60,826 bases of DNA from a virus (taxonomy: Duplodnaviria; Caudoviricetes). The translations under genes and the position numbers were made by a program. Under the pieces are notes generated by a model. The model made no database searches, was not told where the DNA came from, and saw only the letters and a program-made list of their open reading frames with translations. Positions within the stretch are counted from its first letter, which is position 1. Each line of letters begins with the position of its first letter. This document shows, piece by piece, positions 1,239-49,980 of this stretch. The DNA is taken from the IMG/VR virus record IMGVR_UViG_3300037670_000034, positions 1-60,826 of that record. One strand, 5' to 3'.

Positions 1239-4200
1239 TCAGTCCGCCCTCACCGCCTCGATCTGCTTACCGACCTGATCAGTGATCATGCTGCGCATCA
1301 GCGTGAGCCTGTCGATTTCCTTGCGCTTCCACGCACCATCCCGGTCAGAGCGGCGCACGTTCTCCATCTGCTTGTTGATCTCGCTGATACGACGCTGCTG
1401 GCGGTTCAACTGCTGCCGCATCGCCAGGATGCCGCGCTTCTCGGCTGCCAGATCTTGCGCCTCTGCCGTTTTCCCCAACCCCTGCAGTTCGCGCACGTCC
1501 GAGTAAATGCGGTTCGCCTCGCGCAGCCCATCGTAGAACAGCGTGCTGTACCGGGTGTAAGGCGCTGGTGCGCCCAGGTCGCGATAGAAGCGGCGAATCG
1601 GCTGGTACTCGCTCCAGCGCTTGTCCGGTGCCTCTTGGCCAGTTGCCCCGCGCCATACCGTATCGATGATGCCGGCCGCGTTCGCACCCACGGTACCGAA
1701 GTAGCCGCGGATCAGATGATCAGCCTGCACGGGCGACAGCGCGAACGGCGTTTCATCGCCAAACACCCGGCTCGCGCTCGACACGGCTTGCGCCGCCACA
1801 GTGGTGCTGTCCCTGGAGCGCAGCCCTTTGCTCAGCCGCTCCATACCAGCGGTTTCGATATCACGGCCAGTGAAGGCATCCCGGTTGGAGTAGATATCGA
1901 TCACCGGCTGGAACATCTGCGGTACCGGGTTGAAGCTGAAAGTCTGCATCATCATGTCTTTCAAGCGATCGGCGAACAGCTTGCCGGTCGCTTTGTCGTC
2001 GACGAGCTGCTCGGTCACACGCTCGGCCATGGTAGCGATCGCCCCCACCTCGAATGGCTTCGGAATGAAGAACGCATTGTCACCGATGCGGATAAACCAG
2101 TAGGCGTCCTTCTGCCAGTCCTCGAGCTTGCGGTATTCATCGTCATCCGCATTCGCCAGGTACAGGGCGATGCTGGCCAGCGTCAGAGCACCAGTCACTG
2201 CACTGAAGCGTGCAGCAGCCTGCTTGTCACTGGCGGTACCCTGCCCCATGGCCGTCAGCAGCGCCGGCTTAACGCCTGAGCGATACAGCTTGTCCAGACC
2301 TTGAAGCCGCGCATTGAGGAACGGCACCACCCGAATCAGGAAGCGGATCGCCGGCCATGCCCCGTGCTGGCTGAAGTCCATAATGTCGCGCGCCTCATAG
2401 GCAGCACGCAGGCGCCCCAGGTCATCGACGTTCTGCAGGTAGGTGGCCGCACGGCTCACGTTCTCCGCGGTATCCGCCACCTCACCCCAGCGCCTCCAGC
2501 CAGCTCGCAGCAGCTTCGGTACCATGCTCACATCGGTTACCAGTTCGGCACCGGTAACGGCCTTCTTCAAGCTGGCCTTCACCTCGTTGACGTCAGCGCC
2601 GTACAGGTGGCCAAAGCTGAACGCACCGCCACTGGCCTGCATTTCCGCCCGGGTGCGCGCATCCCGGTAACCAGCAACGCCCTGCGACAGGTTCTTGAAC
2701 AGGTTCTTGCTGGTCGGCGAGGTCGCCGAGGCCTGCATCAGATCGCGCATGGTGTTGGCCAGGATGAACTGCGGCGTAACCGTGGTCATGTTGGTGAACA
2801 GCCGCTTAAAGGCAGACATGGTCTGTACCGCCAGGTTGTTCAGCCCAGGATCTGCCAGAGCAGTCAGCGACTCGAATACCAGGGGATCATCGATCTCGTA
2901 GAAAACCCGATCGCCATCCTTCAGGACGAACGTGCTGGTCTTCGGATCACGGCGGCTCTCTGGCACCACTCGCGCAATGCCGGCGCGCTCGGCGTTGACC
3001 ATTGCCTGCGTCGCGGCCTGGTTCTTCAGGCTGGCCGAAATCAGATGATGGAAGTTCATCAGGGTGTTTTCCAGCAGGTCATTCAGATTCTGCTTGCCAC
3101 CCTTCAGCTTCTTGTAGGCCTCCTGACGGCTCAGCCCCTTACCGGCGCGCGGGCCGCCGGCGGCAGCCTCTTCATCCATCACCCGATAGAACGGCACGTA
3201 GAACTCGTCACGCCACATCGCCCTGGTGTCGGAGTTGATGATGCCGTTTGCCTCGGCGATGGCCAGCACATCGTCACGGTACTGCTGAAACTCGCTGAAT
3301 ACCTTGCTGTACAGCATCTGCCGGCTCTTGCCATCAGCCGTCCGCCCGCCGTTCAACTGCTTGCCACTGGCAATTTCATCGGCGGTGAACAGGTTCTCGC
3401 GCCCTTCCTGCATCAGGCGATCAGCGCGATTCGCGGCAATCCACCCCATGAAGCGCTCCACTTCTGCGGCCGACCCCAATTGCGTCAGCACGGCAGAAAG
3501 GCCACCAGTCTTGTCGCCGTCCTGCAGGGTGATCACCCGCTCTTTTCCGTCAAAGCGCAGGCGCCCAGTGGTCAGCATCGCATTCAGCGCACCAGAGGCC
3601 GACGACGACATACGCGCCAGCACCCAGGAACTGCTGTGGATGGCGTTGTCGATGAAGTCTTTGCCCAGCAGCCTCTCGTCGAGCTCTTTCAGTGCCGCAT
3701 AGCGATCAACCACGCCTTGGCGGATTTTCGTGGCCACGCGATCAGTACGCTCGCGCACCCATTCCTTGGCCTTGGTCAGCGCCGGCGGCGAGCCGATCTT
3801 GTTCAGGAAGTCGCGCGCGCCCTGATTCAGCTCGGGGAAGGCATCTGCAGTTTTCCCGGTAACGAACCGATCGGTGAAAGCGTCGAGCAGATCAACAGTA
3901 CCCTGGCCTGTACGGCGATAGCGGATATCAGGATCGACCTGATCGAAGGCCCCCGTGTTGTTCGTGGCCGATTTCACCTGGTTGTTATAGAACGCCACCC
4001 AAGTACCGGTGTTCGCAAGTTGGATGCCGTCATATCCCTCGGCTTCCAGCCGCTGCCGCATAGCAATCGCCTTCTCGAAGGAATCCAGGCTCTGCGATTC
4101 CGCCACGCTCATGCGATACGGATTCTTGATTGAGGCGAACAACGGCATCACGTTGGCCAGCCCTGGCATGCCGTCGGTTGCTTTCTCCGCGTAGGCTTTC

Positions 4201-46052: not shown

Positions 46053-47120
46053 ATGACCACTATGAATGACGTGAACCTCGAAACCGGCACCGTGAACATT
46101 GCCGTTTTCAACCAAACCGACGCAGCCCTGGCTGCGCTGCGCGAGAAGTATCAGGTCGTGCCTGATGCCAACACCGAAGACGGCTATGCCTTTGTCAAGG
46201 AAGGCATCAAGGAACTGACCACCCTGCGCACCCGCCTCGAGGCAGTGCGCAAAGAGGTGAAGGAACCCTACCTGCAGGCCGGTCGAATCATCGACACCGA
46301 AGCCAAGCGCATCACCACCGAGCTAACCAACTTGGAAGAGCCGATGAAGGCTGCGAAGAAAGAGGTCGATGATCGTGTCGAGCGCGAGCGCCAGGAACGT
46401 ATTGCCCGCCTGCAGGCGAAGGTCGACGCGATCAAGGCCATGCCCGGCCAGGTACGGGGCAAGAGCAGCCAGGAAATCGAGGCCATGTATGACCGCGTCG
46501 GCGAGATCGACGCCATGCATGACTTCTTCGACCTCACCCGCGAGGCCGTCGCCGCTCGCCAGGCTGCCCTGGATGAACTGACCCAGATGCTGACTGAGCG
46601 CCTGGAGTTCGAAGTGAACGAGAAAGCTCGCCTGCAGGCTGAAGCCGAGCGCGCCGAACTGCAACGCCAACTCAAGGCACAGCAGGAAGAGAACGATCGC
46701 ATCCTGCGCGAGCAGCAAGCCGAAATGCAGCGCCAGCAGGACGAGATCAAGCGTCAGCAGCAGGAAATGCAGCGTCAGCAGGACGAAATGCGCCAGCAGC
46801 GTGAAGCGCTAGAGCGTGCCCAGGCCGCCCTGCAACAGCCCGCACCTGCCGCCGAAGTCGCCCAGGTCGAAGCGCCAGCCGAAGTGGTCGCAGCCAAACC
46901 GGCACCGGCAACCAGCAAGGCCAAGCCCGACAACCGCCAATGGCACGCAGTGGTTACCGACAAGTCCGCGCTGATCGCTGCGATCGCCGAAGGCTTCGGC
47001 ACCGAGGATCTGCTGATCGTCGACCAGGCCGCCCTCGACAGCCTGGCCAACGACAAGCGCAACAGCCTGGAACTGCCGGGTGTTGTCGCCCAGCCGGTAC
47101 CGGCCACCCACGCCGCCTAA
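46053..47120 (+). CDS. Coiled-coil phage protein with Gln-rich heptad repeats
   Basis: RKEVKEPYL..IDTEAKRI; EMQRQQD repeats. Confidence 0.75.
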   Translation: MTTMNDVNLETGTVNIAVFNQTDAALAALREKYQVVPDANTEDGYAFVKEGIKELTTLRTRLEAVRKEVKEPYLQAGRIIDTEAKRITTELTNLEEPMKAAKKEVDDRVERERQERIARLQAKVDAIKAMPGQVRGKSSQEIEAMYDRVGEIDAMHDFFDLTREAVAARQAALDELTQMLTERLEFEVNEKARLQAEAERAELQRQLKAQQEENDRILREQQAEMQRQQDEIKRQQQEMQRQQDEMRQQREALERAQAALQQPAPAAEVAQVEAPAEVVAAKPAPATSKAKPDNRQWHAVVTDKSALIAAIAEGFGTEDLLIVDQAALDSLANDKRNSLELPGVVAQPVPATHAA

Positions 47121-47187
47121 CTCAATCCCTGAGTAACCGACCGCGCCGGACCATCCGGCGTGAGTTGGGGCTCCTTTGGAGAACGAA

Positions 47188-47265
47188 ATGTACAGATCAC
47201 TCAACGCATTCATGGGTTTCTACCTCGGTTTCGCACTGATAACCCTCATCGCCTTTTCGATGTAA
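47188..47265 (+). CDS. 25-aa hydrophobic peptide
   Basis: GGAGA RBS; MYRSLNAFMGFYLGFALITLIAFSM. Confidence 0.5.
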   Translation: MYRSLNAFMGFYLGFALITLIAFSM

Positions 47266-47347
47266 CGCACCGCGCCGCAAGGCGCGGCATCCGAGTGCGC
47301 TCCGCCGTAGAGCGCAGCCAGATGCCTAACAACCCGAGGACTGCACC

Positions 47348-47923
47348 ATGAGCTTGACCAACGTATTCGACACCGAAAGCACCGGCCTTCCAGACTGGAA
47401 AAACCCCAGCGAAGCCGGCCACCAGCCCCACATCGTCGAGATTGCCAGCCTGCTGTGCGACGCAGAAGGCAACGTGATCGACCGCTACCAGGCGATCGTC
47501 CGCCCGGCCGGCTGGGAAATCACCCCGGAAAATTCCGCCATTCACGGCATCACCCACGAACAGGCCATGGACGAGGGTATCCCAGAGATTGAAGCCCTCG
47601 ACGGCTTCCTGGCTCTGCATGCCCGCGCCGGCATTCGTGTCGCCCACAACGCCACTTTCGATGACCGAATCATCCGCATCGCTATGTCGCGCTACCACAG
47701 CAAAGAGCTGGCCGACAGCTTCAAGGACAACACCGAGAAGTTTTGCACCTGCTACAGCTCGCGTGGCCCGGTAGGCCTGGGCAAGTTGCCAACCCTGGCC
47801 GAGGCCTACAAGCACTTCACTGGCGAAGACCTGGTGGAAGCCCACCGCGCCATGCCCGACGCCCTTGCCTGCGCACAAATTTACTTCGCCTTGAAAGGCA
47901 TCCGCATGCCGGATGCCGCGTAA
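47348..47923 (+). CDS. DnaQ/DEDDh 3'-5' exonuclease
   Basis: FDTESTG, HNATFD, AHRAMPDA. Confidence 0.9.
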   Translation: MSLTNVFDTESTGLPDWKNPSEAGHQPHIVEIASLLCDAEGNVIDRYQAIVRPAGWEITPENSAIHGITHEQAMDEGIPEIEALDGFLALHARAGIRVAHNATFDDRIIRIAMSRYHSKELADSFKDNTEKFCTCYSSRGPVGLGKLPTLAEAYKHFTGEDLVEAHRAMPDALACAQIYFALKGIRMPDAA

Positions 47924-47924
47924 C

Positions 47925-48223
47925 GGCCCGGATGGGCAGGGCGCGGCAAGGCTAGGCACGGCCGGGCGCGGCAAGGGCTACTCGATAGCGGTCTGGCGAT
48001 TCACTGAGTCGCCTTTCCGGTGCCGAGAGGCATCACACGGCGGGACGTGCTCAGGCACGGCGAGCCGGGGCGAGGCGCGGCCAGGCAAGGGCTGTAATCA
48101 GCGGTCTGCCGATTCTTCGAGTCGGCTTTCCGGTGGCATCAACCACTAGCGGCATCGCATGTCCGGGCAAGGCGAGGCACCGCGGGGCGCCGCGCGGAAT
48201 GGCGAGGCAAGGGCGCATAGCGC
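47925..48223 (+). ncRNA. Array of three GGC-NN pentamer-repeat units (candidate guide RNAs) with hairpin tails
   Basis: Phased pentamer tracts at 47925-47974, 48039-48088 and 48151-48210, each ending GGCAAGGGC; conserved 36-nt hairpin tails at 47987-48022 and 48100-48135. Confidence 0.8.
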
Positions 48224-48244
48224 ACACATTCTTGGAGAAGTCAG

Positions 48245-48814
48245 ATGCAAACGATCAAGGTAAAAATCATCGGCACCCGTCCTCTGCTCATGCACAGCGA
48301 CATTTTCGCCGATCCGCTGAACCCGCTGACCAAGGCGCACAAGGCGCTGACCAGCAAGCGGAAGAAAACCGACGAAGACCATGAAGCGATCGCCCAGTCC
48401 GAATGGCGCGGCGGCATGTACTTCGATGAAGAGCTCGGCCCGTATGTCCCTGGCGTGAACATCGAATCAGCGATGGTCGCCGGCGGCAAGCTCTCCAAGA
48501 TGGGTACCCAACTCAAGCGCTCCGTCGAGGTCATGGACGAGCGCTGCAAGCTTGAATACACCGGCCCTCGCACCGTTTCCGGTTTGTGGGAACAGCGTTT
48601 CTACGACGCACGCAGCGTGAAGGTGCAGACCGCACGCCTCACCCGCTACCGTCCTCTTTTCCGCGAATGGTCGCTGACCTGCGAGATTGCTTTCGACTCC
48701 GAGACGATCAACCGCGAGCAGGTCGTCAAGTGCCTCGAAGATGCCGGCCAATACTGCGGCATCGGCGACTACCGCCCGAAGTTCGGCCGCTTCTCGGTGG
48801 AGGTGCTGGCATGA
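48245..48814 (+). CDS. Stand-alone Cas7/RAMP-like RNA-binding protein
   Basis: beta1 IKVKIIGTRPLLMH; PYVPGVNIESAM (cf. Csm3/Cas7 P.IPGSS.KG); RPLFREW..EI; G-rich loop GQYCGIGDYRPKFGRF. Confidence 0.75.
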   Translation: MQTIKVKIIGTRPLLMHSDIFADPLNPLTKAHKALTSKRKKTDEDHEAIAQSEWRGGMYFDEELGPYVPGVNIESAMVAGGKLSKMGTQLKRSVEVMDERCKLEYTGPRTVSGLWEQRFYDARSVKVQTARLTRYRPLFREWSLTCEIAFDSETINREQVVKCLEDAGQYCGIGDYRPKFGRFSVEVLA

Positions 48815-49299
48815 CCTCTTCCACTTGGAGCCTGGCCGGCGCCGTCGAGAAATTCATCGCTGACAACTTCAACGATGGCGACCTGATCAGCCATGACTGG
48901 CTGTCCTGGGCGCTCGAACTTCCGACCCCGAAAACGGTTGATCAGGCGCGCGAAGCTCAGTTCGTCGCCATGAGCCGCATCGAGGACTTCAAGCAAGCGC
49001 TGCTCGAAGACCACTGCATCTACATCGTGTCCGTCCGTGGCCAGGGTTACCGCATCGTGCCGCCACGCGACCAGGCGCGCCTGGCAGCAGCTCGCGCCCT
49101 TCAGGCAACCCGTCGCGAAGTGGCGACCTGCCAGAAGGTCATGACCAAGACACGCACAACACTGCTCAGCACAGACGAAATGCGCCGCCACACCGACACC
49201 CAACTCAAGGTCGCCGCCCTGGCCGGGATGCTCGACAAGCGCGGTCGCAACATCTTCGCCCTCTTCGACGGCAACAAATCTTCTAACCAGGGAGCATAA
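48811..49299 (+). CDS. Accessory protein coupled to the RAMP gene (possible winged helix plus helical tail)
   Basis: ATGA overlap and GGAGGTG RBS; IVSVRGQGYRIV wing-like motif. Confidence 0.7.
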   Translation: MTSSTWSLAGAVEKFIADNFNDGDLISHDWLSWALELPTPKTVDQAREAQFVAMSRIEDFKQALLEDHCIYIVSVRGQGYRIVPPRDQARLAAARALQATRREVATCQKVMTKTRTTLLSTDEMRRHTDTQLKVAALAGMLDKRGRNIFALFDGNKSSNQGA

Positions 49300-49301
49300 C
49301 C

Positions 49302-49565
49302 ATGATTGCCCAACGGAATACTGCAGCCCATCTGAAAGAAATTCAGATGATTTGCCCGGAAAAAACCATCATACGCATACCTGAAGTGACGGCTCTGACG
49401 GGCCTGGCGCGCAATACCATCTACAAGCGCCTCAAGGGCGATCCCTCCTTTCCGAAACCAGTACCACTGAGCGACAGCAAATTGCGTGGAGCTCCAGTTG
49501 GCTGGGTATTGGCCGAGGTTCAAGCCTGGATTTCTTCCCAAATCACTAAACGTGATCAGGAGTAA
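49302..49565 (+). CDS. Second AlpA-family regulator
   Basis: IIRIPEVTALTGLARNTIY..FPKPVPL..VGW..EVQAWI. Confidence 0.88.
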   Translation: MIAQRNTAAHLKEIQMICPEKTIIRIPEVTALTGLARNTIYKRLKGDPSFPKPVPLSDSKLRGAPVGWVLAEVQAWISSQITKRDQE

Positions 49566-49569
49566 ATCC

Positions 49570-49980
49570 ATGCACCACGAAACAACACTCAACCTGCCGA
49601 CCCTGTCATCCAAGGATGCAGCTCGTCAGTGGCTCGCTGACAAGCTGGCTGAGTACCAAGCCGGGGCCGAGCAGGTAACCGAGTCGCCGATCGAGAAGCG
49701 CCCACTGGTCAGTGGCCAGTGGCGCTCTCCCGACATGACGATCATCACCGAGTCCCGCCGTCATGAGCAGGCCGCCAAGGCCCATCGCAAAGGCGGTCGC
49801 CCGATTGGCTCTGTCGTCGAAGACAGTCCCGCCCTGATCGAGCGCGCACGTGCAATGGCCGGCATTGGCATCGCCAAGTCTACCGCCGCCAAACGCCTGG
49901 AGATCGGCACCACTCGCCTCGAGCGTCTGGCCGAGCAGAACGGCATCCAGCAGTACAAAAAATCCCCTAAAGCCGCCTGA
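49570..49980 (+). CDS. Hypothetical protein with C-terminal HTH
   Basis: [18 protein letters not shown]. Confidence 0.65.

What the first reader, a model, noticed from the sequence alone, without database searches (positions are those of the whole stretch)
47925..48210. Dinucleotide code in the three pentamer tracts
Seen: unit 1 is GGCCC GGATG GGCAG GGCGC GGCAA GGCTA GGCAC GGCCG GGCGC GGCAA. Unit 2 is GGCGG GACGT GCTCA GGCAC GGCGA GCCGG GGCGA GGCGC GGCCA GGCAA. Unit 3 is GGCAT CGCAT GTCCG GGCAA GGCGA GGCAC CGCGG GGCGC CGCGC GGAAT GGCGA GGCAA. The phase is never broken. Positions 1-3 are GGC in 9/10, 7/10 and 7/12 pentamers, while positions 4-5 vary freely, unlike a slippage microsatellite. 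The NN strings are CC-TG-AG-GC-AA-TA-AC-CG-GC, GG-GT-CA-AC-GA-GG-GA-GC-CA and AT-AT-CG-AA-GA-AC-GG-GC-GC-AT-GA; the final AA is invariant and probably scaffold. Inference: these specify gapped targets such as NNxNNxNN, which would tolerate codon wobble changes.
Basis: partly seen in the sequence, partly recalled or inferred. Interest (0 to 1): 0.85.

Follow-up and report, generated by a model that had tools for sequence, protein, structure and literature searches.

The report
Phage VIPR guide RNAs, gapped code
The three five-base-periodic tracts are the guide RNAs of a phage VIPR system, a CRISPR-like DNA silencer published in 2026, and the first guide reads a gene of sister phages that lack the system.

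Summary
Window 47925-48210 holds three in-phase GGC-NN tracts of 10, 10 and 12 pentamers, and nothing else in this 60.8-kb phage genome looks like them.

The reading is supported, but it is already published. The tracts are the vrRNA array of a type II VIPR system. The next gene (48245-48814) matches the solved SUSP1 Vipr protein at E 6.6e-52, and a vap1-like gene follows it. Preprints of 2026 show that each NN pairs with DNA while one target base is skipped (NNxNNx), usually the codon wobble.

This scan has met VIPR before on other DNA: 62 notes in at least 56 genomes.

One result is new here. Guide 1 without its terminal AA matches 18 of 18 read letters at a 1-base gap in 8 IMG/VR records. 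All eight hits lie at one site, in codon register, at the 3' end of the DnaQ-like exonuclease gene of relatives that carry no Vipr. In the two closest of these records the whole VIPR cassette is absent. The window's own copy, just upstream of the array, differs at 4 of the 18 read letters, and divergence from the sisters begins exactly at that site.

No target was found for guides 2 and 3.

The parts
47925..47974 (+). vrRNA1 repeat tract: 10 GGY-NN pentamers, one of them a deviant GGA unit. NN = CC TG AG GC AA TA AC CG GC AA.
   Evidence: The natural target of the first 9 NN is.
47975..48038 (+). vrRNA1 3' tail with four helices: hairpin P1, a two-pair stem that encloses hairpin P2, and hairpin P3.
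   Evidence: Alignment of 29 tails. RNAalifold predicts 17 pairs, 10 of them with changes on both sides. 97.3% of cells are paired, against 80.7% when shuffled and 35-61% when slid. Covariance model score 67.1 bits (this tail was in the model).
48039..48088 (+). vrRNA2 repeat tract: 10 pentamers, with units 2, 3 and 6 deviant. NN = GG GT CA AC GA GG GA GC CA AA.
   Evidence: No target found.
48089..48150 (+). vrRNA2 3' tail, with the same fold as tail 1.
   Evidence: 66.7 bits (this tail was in the model).
48151..48210 (+). vrRNA3 repeat tract: 12 pentamers, 5 of them deviant. NN = AT AT CG AA GA AC GG GC GC AT GA AA.
   Evidence: No target found.
48211..48244 (+). Short tail of vrRNA3. Only the first hairpin is present (GCGC/GCGC), and the sequence then runs straight into the GGAG ribosome site and start codon of vipr.
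   Evidence: Sequence; fold; no full-tail match here. L002 and L003 have the same layout.
48245..48814 (+). vipr: 189-aa RAMP-type protein that reads one repeat per protomer.
   Evidence: PDB 36pp 'SUSP1 Vipr protein', E 6.6e-52, residues 1-188 aligned. phrog_4652. No Pfam or NCBIfam match. Contact residues checked.
48811..49299 (+). vap1-like accessory gene of 162 aa; its start overlaps the vipr stop.
   Evidence: Homologous to the gene that follows vipr in LESphi2 (27% identity, E 2e-22), in Medea1 (36%, E 5e-26) and in Felixounavirus VpaE1 (28%, E 3e-18). All are phrog_5926.
47873..47899 (-). The phage's own, changed copy of the vrRNA1 target: codons A Q I Y F A L K G of the exonuclease gene. 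It matches the guide at 14 of 18 read letters.
   Evidence: Self-scan hit of 15 of 20 at minus 47898. Codon table against 8 relatives. Divergence from the sister phages starts here.
47348..47923 (+). DnaQ/RNase_T-like exonuclease gene. Its last ~160 nt belong to the block shared with other VIPR-bearing phages.
   Evidence: Pfam RNase_T, E 7e-16. Identity to L002 is 61-93% up to about 47764 and about 100% from 47765 to 49297.
49302..49565 (+). AlpA-family ORF between vap and the next gene. It is an extra found in this phage only and is not part of the shared VIPR block.
   Evidence: Pfam Phage_AlpA, E 1.3e-12. No homolog in L002 or L003, where the 136-aa gene follows vap directly.

Best explanation
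Window 47925-48244 is the guide-RNA (vrRNA) array of a type II VIPR system carried by a temperate Pseudomonas-type phage. Three RNAs are encoded, the first two about 112-114 nt long. Each is a run of GGY-NN pentamers followed by a structured tail.

By homology to the solved SUSP1 system, Vipr protomers (gene at 48245-48814) line up along the RNA one per pentamer. They bury the GGY bases and present each NN pair. The NN pairs bind double-stranded DNA while one target base is skipped between pairs, so the target reads NNxNNx. Skipping the codon wobble base lets one guide follow a protein motif across diverged alleles. Binding silences transcription, and the vap1-like gene (48811-49299) assists.

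Shown here:
- the repeat anatomy and its rarity;
- the homology of Vipr and Vap;
- the covarying tail;
- free NN in relatives, including a 99%-identical sister phage with guides 2 and 3 swapped;
- a natural target for guide 1.

The guide 1 target is the motif A-R-V-Y-F-A-L-Q-G at the 3' end of the exonuclease gene. It occurs in relatives that hold no Vipr and, in the two closest, no VIPR cassette. The window's own allele differs at 4 of the 18 read letters.

Inferred, not shown here: transcription and processing of the RNAs, filament assembly, and silencing of the sister phages' early operon.
For: 1. Protein. The Vipr ORF hits PDB 36pp 'SUSP1 Vipr protein' at E 6.6e-52 over residues 1-188. Of 13 SUSP1 residues that the cryo-EM paper names as RNA or DNA contacts, 9 are identical: H17, K33, R39, K82, G87, R138 (R136 here), C173 (C171), D177 (D175) and R179 (R177). 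W178 is Y176 here. E71, M72 and K88 differ.

2. Architecture. [quoted passage not shown] The Vap homologs share phrog_5926 with the gene after vipr in a Felixounavirus.

3. RNA. The tracts have 10, 10 and 12 repeats, within the published 9-16. The tail fold has 17 pairs, 10 with compensatory changes, and 0 of 500 shuffles reach its covariation score.

4. Family. My caller found GGY-NN arrays in 22 of the 27 loci that were fetched with the Vipr protein. L002 keeps the three guides with 2 letter changes. L003 keeps guide 1 but has other NN in guides 2 and 3, between identical flanks and near-identical tails.

5. Target.
- The guide 1 pattern without AA gave 8 exact IMG/VR hits, all at one homologous site, antisense to the exonuclease gene with the skip at the wobble base.
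- For comparison, an 18-letter pattern from guide 3 gave 4 hits in 3 unrelated genes.
- 0 of 8 target records hold a Vipr homolog; the positive control found it in 5 of 5.
- L048 and L050 are syntenic sisters (neighbouring genes 90-99% identical in tblastx) in which window 47924-49569 is missing.
- Window and sisters are near-identical for about 80 nt upstream, and they diverge from the first codon of the site.

6. Independent sample chosen by protein homology. 9 of 301 genomes of the genus of the Pseudomonas juntendi record (L023 = G001) hold an exonuclease homolog. The best gap-1 match of guide 1 in these loci is always that site: 17, 17, 16, 15, 14, 13, 13, 13 and 13 of 18. No shuffled guide reached 17 (0 of 2000). 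One of the two 17s, and one of the 13s, rest on genomes flagged unpublished (G100, G152).
Against: Guides 2 and 3 have no target above background:
- exact IMG/VR scans found 0 hits for each;
- guide 3 with up to 3 mismatches found 0 matches in 401 genomes;
- guide 2 with up to 2 mismatches found 3 hits in 151 genomes, in unrelated chromosomal genes;
- 10 whole related virus records held 0 matches.

Full-length guide 1 with AA gave 5 hits in 301 genomes against about 30 hits for the reversed-pattern control (my count of the rows), so that search shows no enrichment.

The 8 IMG/VR hits are homologous, so they are not independent. One chance match in a conserved motif would be multiplied by homology, and I had scanned 5 window-derived patterns.

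Gap sizes 0, 2 and 3 were never scanned in IMG/VR for guide 1. The gap comparison inside L044-L051 is circular for gap 1.

Two LESphi2 guides also gave 0 exact hits, so I have no positive control for the exact scans.

Expression is not shown. RNA-library contigs cover the array, but they cannot prove transcription. No sigma-70-like promoter or plus-strand terminator was found in the gap.
Confidence: 0.93

Rival explanations
1. The locus is a VIPR array, but the guide 1 match to the exonuclease gene is a chance match amplified by homology. The real target lies elsewhere or is unknown.
For: 18-letter gapped patterns do give chance hits in IMG/VR: 4 for the guide 3 core. The 8 hits are one homologous site. 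I scanned 5 window-derived patterns before this one hit. GC-rich coding DNA favours in-frame matches, and all 4 chance hits of guide 3 were also in frame.
Against: The site lies in the one gene that flanks the array. It sits exactly where the window and the cassette-free sisters begin to diverge. The own copy is changed at 4 read letters, one of them a synonymous Leu change. In a sample chosen by protein homology, the same site is the best gap-1 match in 9 of 9 loci and reaches 17 of 18 twice, against 0 of 2000 shuffled guides. No unrelated hit accompanied the 8.
Confidence: 0.12
2. The tracts are binding sites for a ring-shaped, TRAP-like RNA-binding protein that controls translation or termination of the downstream gene. 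The NN would be mere spacers. This was my first guess.
For: A fixed triplet plus a 2-nt spacer repeated 10-12 times recalls the TRAP binding site (recalled, not from a call). Tract 3 ends 34 nt before the vipr start codon.
Against: The neighbouring protein is a homolog of a solved filament-forming Vipr, not of TRAP. The published structures show NN paired to DNA. Guide 1's NN spell a real target. Guides are swapped between near-identical phages, which spacers would not need.
Confidence: 0.02
3. The tracts are a slippage microsatellite, a glycine-rich coding repeat, or chance periodicity.
For: ORF 47913-48149 (78 aa) runs across tract 1 and most of tract 2. Tandem Repeats Finder reports weak period-10 arrays.
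Against: NN entropy is 1.9-2.0 bits against 0.2-0.8 bits for GGY, so the units are not copies of one another. L003's guide 2 differs from the window's by a gap of 3 and a gap of 5 columns, a net 2 nt, which would shift a reading frame. Only 8 of 200 simulated windows reached even 6 of 9 in-phase GGY.
Confidence: 0.01

Closest known systems
Type II VIPR system of the Pseudomonas fulva prophage clade (bioRxiv 10.64898/2026.04.26.720920)
   Same: Three upstream vrRNAs, then vipr, then vap1 (passage read). GGY/NN repeats with a structured tail. Phage-borne. The paper reports natural targets on other Pseudomonas prophages and no self-target at 80% NN match or above. Here the own genome's best match is 15 of 20.
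   Different: I could not compare sequences, because the P. fulva Vipr is not in my PDB copy (only 36pp was hit). Whether this phage is one of the paper's 32 loci is unknown. The paper's main text names lysis-lysogeny regulators and other VIPR systems as targets. The exonuclease site next to the cassette is not in the main texts I searched.
Type II VIPR of Escherichia phage SUSP1 (PDB 36pp; bioRxiv 10.64898/2026.04.26.720927 and 10.64898/2026.10.15.759431)
   Same: Vipr matches at E 6.6e-52 over its full length, and most contact residues are kept. The related Felixounavirus Vipr genes show about 46% identity by tblastn. The vap1 family is shared. The pentamer code and the wobble-aligned target are the same.
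   Different: SUSP1 is a virulent Felixounavirus-type phage with one vrRNA upstream and three downstream of the genes, and its guides hit a satellite's recombinase. Here all three guides lie upstream in a temperate phage, and guide 1 hits sister phages. W178 is Y here, and the pyrimidine-pocket residues E71 and M72 are V and N.
Class 1 CRISPR-Cas backbone (Cas7 filament on crRNA)
   Same: According to the papers: a RAMP-fold protein polymerises on a guide RNA, and a thumb interrupts pairing at fixed intervals. I did not test the fold here.
   Different: No repeat-spacer array was seen in the repeat scans of the locus. I did not search for cas genes. The guide is a 5-nt repeat with 2 read letters per unit, not a contiguous spacer with every sixth base flipped. 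It binds without cutting (per the paper, type II).
Homing endonuclease genes and other selfish cassettes that attack their own empty site (recalled; an analogy only)
   Same: The element aims at a sequence at its own insertion boundary in cassette-free alleles, and it carries a changed, immune version of that sequence.
   Different: No nuclease is known in type II VIPR. Conversion of the empty site has not been shown. The effect may be plain silencing of a competitor.

Membership tests
VIPR system, type II | Vipr protein: a RAMP homolog of the SUSP1 / P. fulva clade | tested here: met
   phmmer against PDB 36pp_D, E 6.6e-52, query residues 1-188 of 189. tblastn finds homologs in 134 phage records, including Felixounaviruses.
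VIPR system, type II | Residues that hold the GGY bases and the DNA in the SUSP1 structure | tested here: met
   9 of 13 named residues are identical, W178 is replaced by Y (aromatic kept), and E71, M72 and K88 differ. The residues were read from the HMMER alignment, not from a structure.
VIPR system, type II | vrRNA: 9-16 tandem GGY/NN pentamers with conserved GGY and hypervariable NN | tested here: met
   10, 10 and 12 units. Entropy is 0.23/0.35/0.78 bits for GGY against 1.90/1.98 bits for NN, over 741 pentamers of 65 tracts.
VIPR system, type II | Conserved structured 3' tail after the repeats | tested here: met
   Tails 1 and 2: 4 helices, 17 pairs, 10 with double changes, 97.3% of cells paired. 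Tail 3 is cut down to the first hairpin. I did not test the pseudoknot reported for the SUSP1 clade.
VIPR system, type II | vap1 accessory gene next to vipr | tested here: met
   The 162-aa ORF is homologous to the gene after vipr in VpaE1, Medea1 and LESphi2 and shares phrog_5926 with them. That these genes are 'vap1' is inferred from their position; I did not see the SUSP1 record itself.
VIPR system, type II | Targets follow the 1-nt skip rule (NNx), often wobble-aligned, with no self-target | tested here: inconclusive
   Met for guide 1: 18 of 18 in 8 records, in codon register, with a best self-match of 15 of 20. No target was found for guides 2 and 3. Other gap sizes were not scanned in the large collection.
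VIPR system, type II | vrRNAs expressed as ~100-nt RNAs that co-purify with Vipr, and binding represses transcription | not testable with these tools
   Only assembled contigs from 4 RNA libraries of 4 studies cover the array of 95-99% alike relatives. That is a weak hint and no proof.
CRISPR-Cas (class 1) | Repeat-spacer array together with cas genes (Cas5, Cas6, Cas8, a nuclease, adaptation genes) | tested here: inconclusive
   No repeat-spacer array was seen near the locus. The neighbouring ORFs are an exonuclease, vap, an AlpA-family gene and RdgC. I ran no dedicated cas search, so I do not file this locus under CRISPR-Cas.

The most novel reading that the evidence does not exclude
The VIPR cassette may behave as a selfish element that polices its own empty site. 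The block shared by VIPR-bearing phages (about 47765-49299) brings its own recoded 3' end of the exonuclease gene. Its first guide reads the unrecoded version of that same stretch, which lies at the cassette's left boundary in cassette-free sister phages.

In mixed infection, or on superinfection of a lysogen, the cassette-free sister would be silenced at that point, or its R-loop would provoke recombination there. Only genomes that acquire the cassette together with its recoded end would escape. That would drive the cassette through the phage population, much as a homing element spreads.

Other notes of this scan report guides beside recoded neighbouring genes in other phages, so the layout may be general.

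The main texts of the two preprints I searched for it hold neither 'exonuclease' nor 'homing'. I did not search the third, and supplements were closed.
Probability: 0.3. Interest if true: 0.65.

Novelty: new member of a known kind. Interest (0 to 1): 0.33.

Why it matters
The 'dinucleotide code' is real, but it was published in 2026, so the finding itself adds another VIPR locus rather than a new mechanism. The window does give a clean natural example of why the code skips the wobble base. One 9-unit guide matches every read letter of a protein motif in exonuclease alleles that are only 50-82% identical in protein to the window's own, while 4 of the 8 skipped bases vary. It also raises a testable idea: that VIPR cassettes aim a guide at their own empty site and carry an immune copy of it. 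If true, that would explain how such cassettes spread and persist among sister phages.

Tried and rejected
Rfam, E up to 10, over 47000-49000: nothing relevant.

Pfam and NCBIfam on Vipr and Vap: no family. PDB search with Vap: no hit.

TRAP-like ring idea: dropped after the PDB hit.

Self-targeting: the best matches at gaps 0-2 were 15 of 20, 15 of 20 and 17 of 24, the same as shuffled NN orders. Gap 3 finds only the guide genes themselves.

Cross-targeting: 64 unique guides against the window and 28 loci at 85% or better gave 2, 1 and 0 hits at gaps 0, 1 and 2, against 0-4 for shuffles.

Exact scans of IMG/VR:
- Full guides 1, 2 and 3: 0 hits each.
- Guide 3 core (last 9 NN): 4 hits in 3 unrelated proteins, on contigs of 43-56% GC, read as chance.
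- LESphi2 guides 2 and 3: 0 hits, so there is no positive control for exact scans.

Metagenome scan with full guide 1: 1 hit on a 1.6-kb contig with no convincing gene, read as chance.

Genus-level pattern searches (the genus of G001):
- Guide 3, up to 3 mismatches: 0 of 401 genomes.
- Guide 1 with AA, up to 2 mismatches: 5 hits in 301 genomes against about 30 reversed-control hits. The G209 hit was later confirmed as the exonuclease site, one mismatch plus the AA place. The G100 hit lies inside that genome's exonuclease homolog.
- Guide 2, up to 2 mismatches: 3 hits in 151 genomes against 0 control hits. They lie in unrelated chromosomal genes.

Whole records of 5 VIPR-bearing proviruses: 0 hits for all three guides. 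Whole records of 5 target-bearing sister records: 0 hits for guides 2 and 3 without AA.

Search for further tails or solo vrRNAs in the window with covariance model R1, filters off: only the two known tails; the next best scored 15.2 bits, E 0.03.

Promoter and terminator scan of 47300-49700: 0 promoter-like sites and no plus-strand terminator.

RNA libraries: contigs of 4 runs cover 47869-49400 or more in relatives. They cannot show transcription, ends or strand.

Not run: structure prediction, fold search, complex prediction, the two wide protein searches, and equal scans of gaps 0, 2 and 3 in a large collection. Supplements of the three preprints were closed. Data S3 of 10.64898/2026.04.26.720920 may already list this target.
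Full report
WHAT IS THERE

The window is a whole virus record of 60,826 bp. Between a DnaQ/RNase_T-like exonuclease gene (47348-47923; Pfam RNase_T, E 7e-16) and a 189-aa ORF (48245-48814) lies a 321-nt gap. The gap holds three units.

Each unit begins with a tract of in-phase GGC-NN pentamers: 47925-47974 with 10 units, 48039-48088 with 10 units, and 48151-48210 with 12 units. GGC is present in 9 of 10, 7 of 10 and 7 of 12 units. Units 1 and 2 continue with tails of about 62-64 nt. Unit 3 has only a short hairpin before the ribosome site of the ORF.

IS IT MORE THAN CHANCE?

I counted in-phase GGY in 9 consecutive pentamers over both strands of the window. Only these three tracts reach 6 or more (8, 6, 6). 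Of 200 Markov-1 simulations of the window, 192 peaked at 4 or 5, 7 at 6 and 1 at 7. No sigma-70-like promoter or plus-strand terminator was found in the gap, and Rfam has nothing for it.

WHAT IT IS

The 189-aa protein has no Pfam or NCBIfam family. It does match PDB 36pp, 'SUSP1 Vipr protein', at E 6.6e-52 over residues 1-188. That led me to three bioRxiv preprints of 2026 on VIPR (Viral Interference Programmable Repeat) systems:
- 10.64898/2026.04.26.720920: I read the Results and two Methods sections.
- 10.64898/2026.04.26.720927: I read Results part 1.
- 10.64898/2026.10.15.759431: I read one Results section and the Discussion.

They describe vrRNAs of 9-16 GGY/NN pentamers with a structured 3' tail. 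One Vipr protomer binds per pentamer and buries the GGY. The NN pairs bind double-stranded DNA with one target base skipped between pairs (the '1 nt skip rule'), usually the codon wobble. There is no PAM, either strand can be bound, and the outcome is transcriptional silencing. [quoted passage not shown]

MEMBERSHIP TESTS

Of 13 SUSP1 contact residues named in the cryo-EM paper, 9 are identical here: H17, K33, R39, K82, G87, R138 (R136 here), C173 (C171), D177 (D175) and R179 (R177). W178 is Y176. E71, M72 and K88 are V, N and T.

The 162-aa ORF that overlaps the vipr stop (48811-49299) is homologous to the gene after vipr in LESphi2, Medea1 and the Felixounavirus VpaE1. All belong to phrog_5926.

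An alignment of 29 tails from this window and 11 related loci folds into four helices with 17 pairs, 10 of them with changes on both sides. 97.3% of cells are paired, against 80.7% in shuffles and 35-61% when the partners are slid. 0 of 500 shuffles reach the covariation score. A covariance model of the tail finds only the two known tails in the window, so there is no solo vrRNA elsewhere.

ARE THE NN FREE?

The Vipr protein fetched 20 IMG/VR loci and 7 genome loci at 31-99% identity. My caller found GGY-NN arrays in 22 of these 27 loci, and also in LESphi2. Over 65 unique tracts (741 pentamers), entropy is 0.23, 0.35 and 0.78 bits at the GGY positions and 1.90 and 1.98 bits at NN. All 16 dinucleotides occur.

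The clearest case is the pair of 99%-identical relatives. L002 has the same three guides with two letter changes. L003 keeps guide 1 but carries different NN strings in guides 2 and 3, between identical flanks and near-identical tails. The refuting condition 'NN invariant across homologous loci' is therefore not met.

The terminal NN is AA in 3 of 3 tracts here and in 40 of 65 in the family, against 11% at other places.

Most of it was negative, and I report that in full.
- The phage's own genome: best matches at gaps 0-2 equal shuffled guides (15/20, 15/20, 17/24).
- 64 guides against the window and 28 loci: background level.
- Exact scans of IMG/VR with the full guides at gap 1: 0 hits each.
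- The last 9 NN of guide 3: 4 hits in three unrelated proteins, read as chance.
- A metagenome scan with full guide 1: one doubtful hit.
- Mismatch-tolerant searches in the genus of a Pseudomonas juntendi genome: guide 3, 0 of 401 genomes. Guide 1 with AA, 5 hits in 301 genomes against about 30 for the reversed control. Guide 2, 3 hits in 151 genomes, in unrelated chromosomal genes.
- Two LESphi2 guides: also 0 exact hits.

THE ONE POSITIVE RESULT

It gave 8 exact hits.

All 8 lie at one homologous site, on the strand antisense to the 3' end of an exonuclease gene that is 50-82% identical in protein to the window's own. On the coding strand the read letters are the first two bases of the codons A R V Y F A L Q G, just after the conserved H-R-A-M-P-D motif. 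Every skipped base is a wobble base, and 4 of the 8 skipped bases vary among the 8 records. The place facing the terminal AA reads CA in all 8.

The window's own copy of this site (47873-47899; A Q I Y F A L K G) differs at 4 of the 18 read letters. The changes are R to Q, V to I, a synonymous CTG to TTG, and Q to K. This is the 15-of-20 self hit already seen.

WHO CARRIES THE TARGET?

None of the 8 target records encodes a Vipr homolog. The same search found Vipr in 5 of 5 known carriers.

L048 and L050 are proviruses of about 58.5 kb. They are syntenic with the window, with neighbouring genes 90-99% identical in tblastx. Their exonuclease gene is followed within about 25 nt by the homolog of the window gene that starts at 49570. 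So window 47924-49569 is absent from them.

The window and these sisters are near-identical for about 80 nt upstream of the site, with only 2-4 differences. They diverge from the first codon of the site onward.

Conversely, the window and L002 are only 61-93% identical across most of the exonuclease gene but about 100% identical from 47765 to 49297. The recoded end of the exonuclease gene therefore travels with the array, vipr and vap.

The AlpA-family ORF (49302-49565) is an extra found only in this phage.

REPLICATION ON A SAMPLE NOT CHOSEN BY THE PATTERN

A protein search with the exonuclease found homologs in 9 of 301 genomes of the same genus, at 53-72% identity. In each locus the best gap-1 match of guide 1 is the homologous site: 17, 17, 16, 15, 14, 13, 13, 13 and 13 of 18. 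The best matches at gaps 0, 2 and 3 were 14, 13 and 16. Among 2000 shuffled NN orders at gap 1, none reached 17 and 3 reached 16. None of the nine 3.5-kb loci holds Vipr or Vap. Two of the nine genomes (G100, G152) are flagged unpublished. One of the two 17s rests on G100.

LIMITS

The 8 IMG/VR hits are homologs, not independent events, and I had scanned five window-derived patterns. Gaps 0, 2 and 3 were not scanned in IMG/VR. The gap comparison inside the 8 loci (18 of 18 at gap 1 against 13-14 at other gaps) is circular for gap 1. Guides 2 and 3 remain without a target, which is not unusual: the paper found targets for 66 of 96 guides of the P. fulva clade.

Expression is not shown. Contigs from 4 RNA libraries of 4 studies cover the array, vipr and vap of 95-99% alike relatives, but contigs cannot prove transcription.

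MECHANISM

The first two steps below come from the preprints and apply here by homology. The last two are my inference.
1. The three RNAs are made from the early operon and bound by Vipr, one protomer per pentamer.
2. The NN pairs read DNA two letters at a time and skip the wobble base. Binding blocks transcription, helped by Vap1.
3. Guide 1 binds the exonuclease 3' end of cassette-free sister phages and would block their early operon at that point.
4. The phage itself is spared by four changed read letters.

COMPARISON AND NOVELTY

This is a member of type II VIPR, closest to the P. fulva prophage clade. The scan has met VIPR many times: 62 notes in at least 56 genomes. One of those notes concerns a near-identical Vipr.

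The 'dinucleotide code' is therefore known. What may be new is a guide aimed at the cassette's own empty site, with a recoded immune copy carried by the cassette. 'Exonuclease' and 'homing' do not occur in the main texts of two of the preprints. I did not search the third preprint for those words. Only those three papers use 'vrRNA' in this sense. Supplements were closed. Other notes of this scan report similar guide-beside-recoded-gene layouts; I took these as a lead, not as evidence.

Noticed in passing
L003:2796-2965 against window 48039-48210: A 99%-identical sister provirus keeps guide 1 but carries different NN strings in guides 2 and 3, between identical flanks and near-identical tails. 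Whole guides appear to be exchanged, with the conserved tails as likely crossover points. Its tail 2 also shows a compensatory G-C to A-U change.
   Followed up: partly
window 48211-48244: The third vrRNA has only the first tail hairpin and runs straight into the vipr ribosome site. It may therefore be part of the vipr mRNA leader, which could allow Vipr to regulate its own translation. L002 and L003 have the same layout, and L008 appears to.
   Followed up: no
window 49302-49565: An AlpA-family ORF sits between vap and the next gene in this phage only. In L002 and L003 the 136-aa gene (window 49570-49980) follows vap directly.
   Followed up: partly
L002:2680-2729: L002's guide 1 differs from the window's by one read letter (NN 4 is AC instead of GC). 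It matches the 8 target records at 17 of 18. It may track an exonuclease allele with Val in place of Ala, which I did not look for.
   Followed up: no
L022 and L025 (genome contigs): A record titled Vreelandella andesensis holds the same VIPR locus and guides as IMG/VR provirus L004. A contig binned as a Methanobacteriota archaeon MAG holds a 71%-identical Vipr with arrays. The host labels look doubtful: possible contamination, mis-binning or transfer.
   Followed up: no
L024:4024-4138; L018:2809-2951 and 3602-3739; L020 minus strand 2241-2346: Array variants occur in more distant relatives: one tract of 23 pentamers; back-to-back tracts joined by a short AGTAG-AGC linker instead of a long tail; and arrays on a GCT-type scaffold rather than GGY. 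The preprint mentions staggered arrays and 'a related consensus'.
   Followed up: no
window 47869-48644, runs X4 and X6: In two RNA libraries from different studies, short contigs start at 47869 and 47911. That is just upstream of the array, and one of them spans only the array and the start of vipr. This is a weak hint of a transcript that begins near the array.
   Followed up: partly
L007:2257 (plus strand): Guide 3 of L004 (10 NN) matches L007 at 18 of 20 at gap 1, about 750 nt upstream of L007's vipr. Shuffled controls gave 0-4 such hits, so it may be chance.
   Followed up: no
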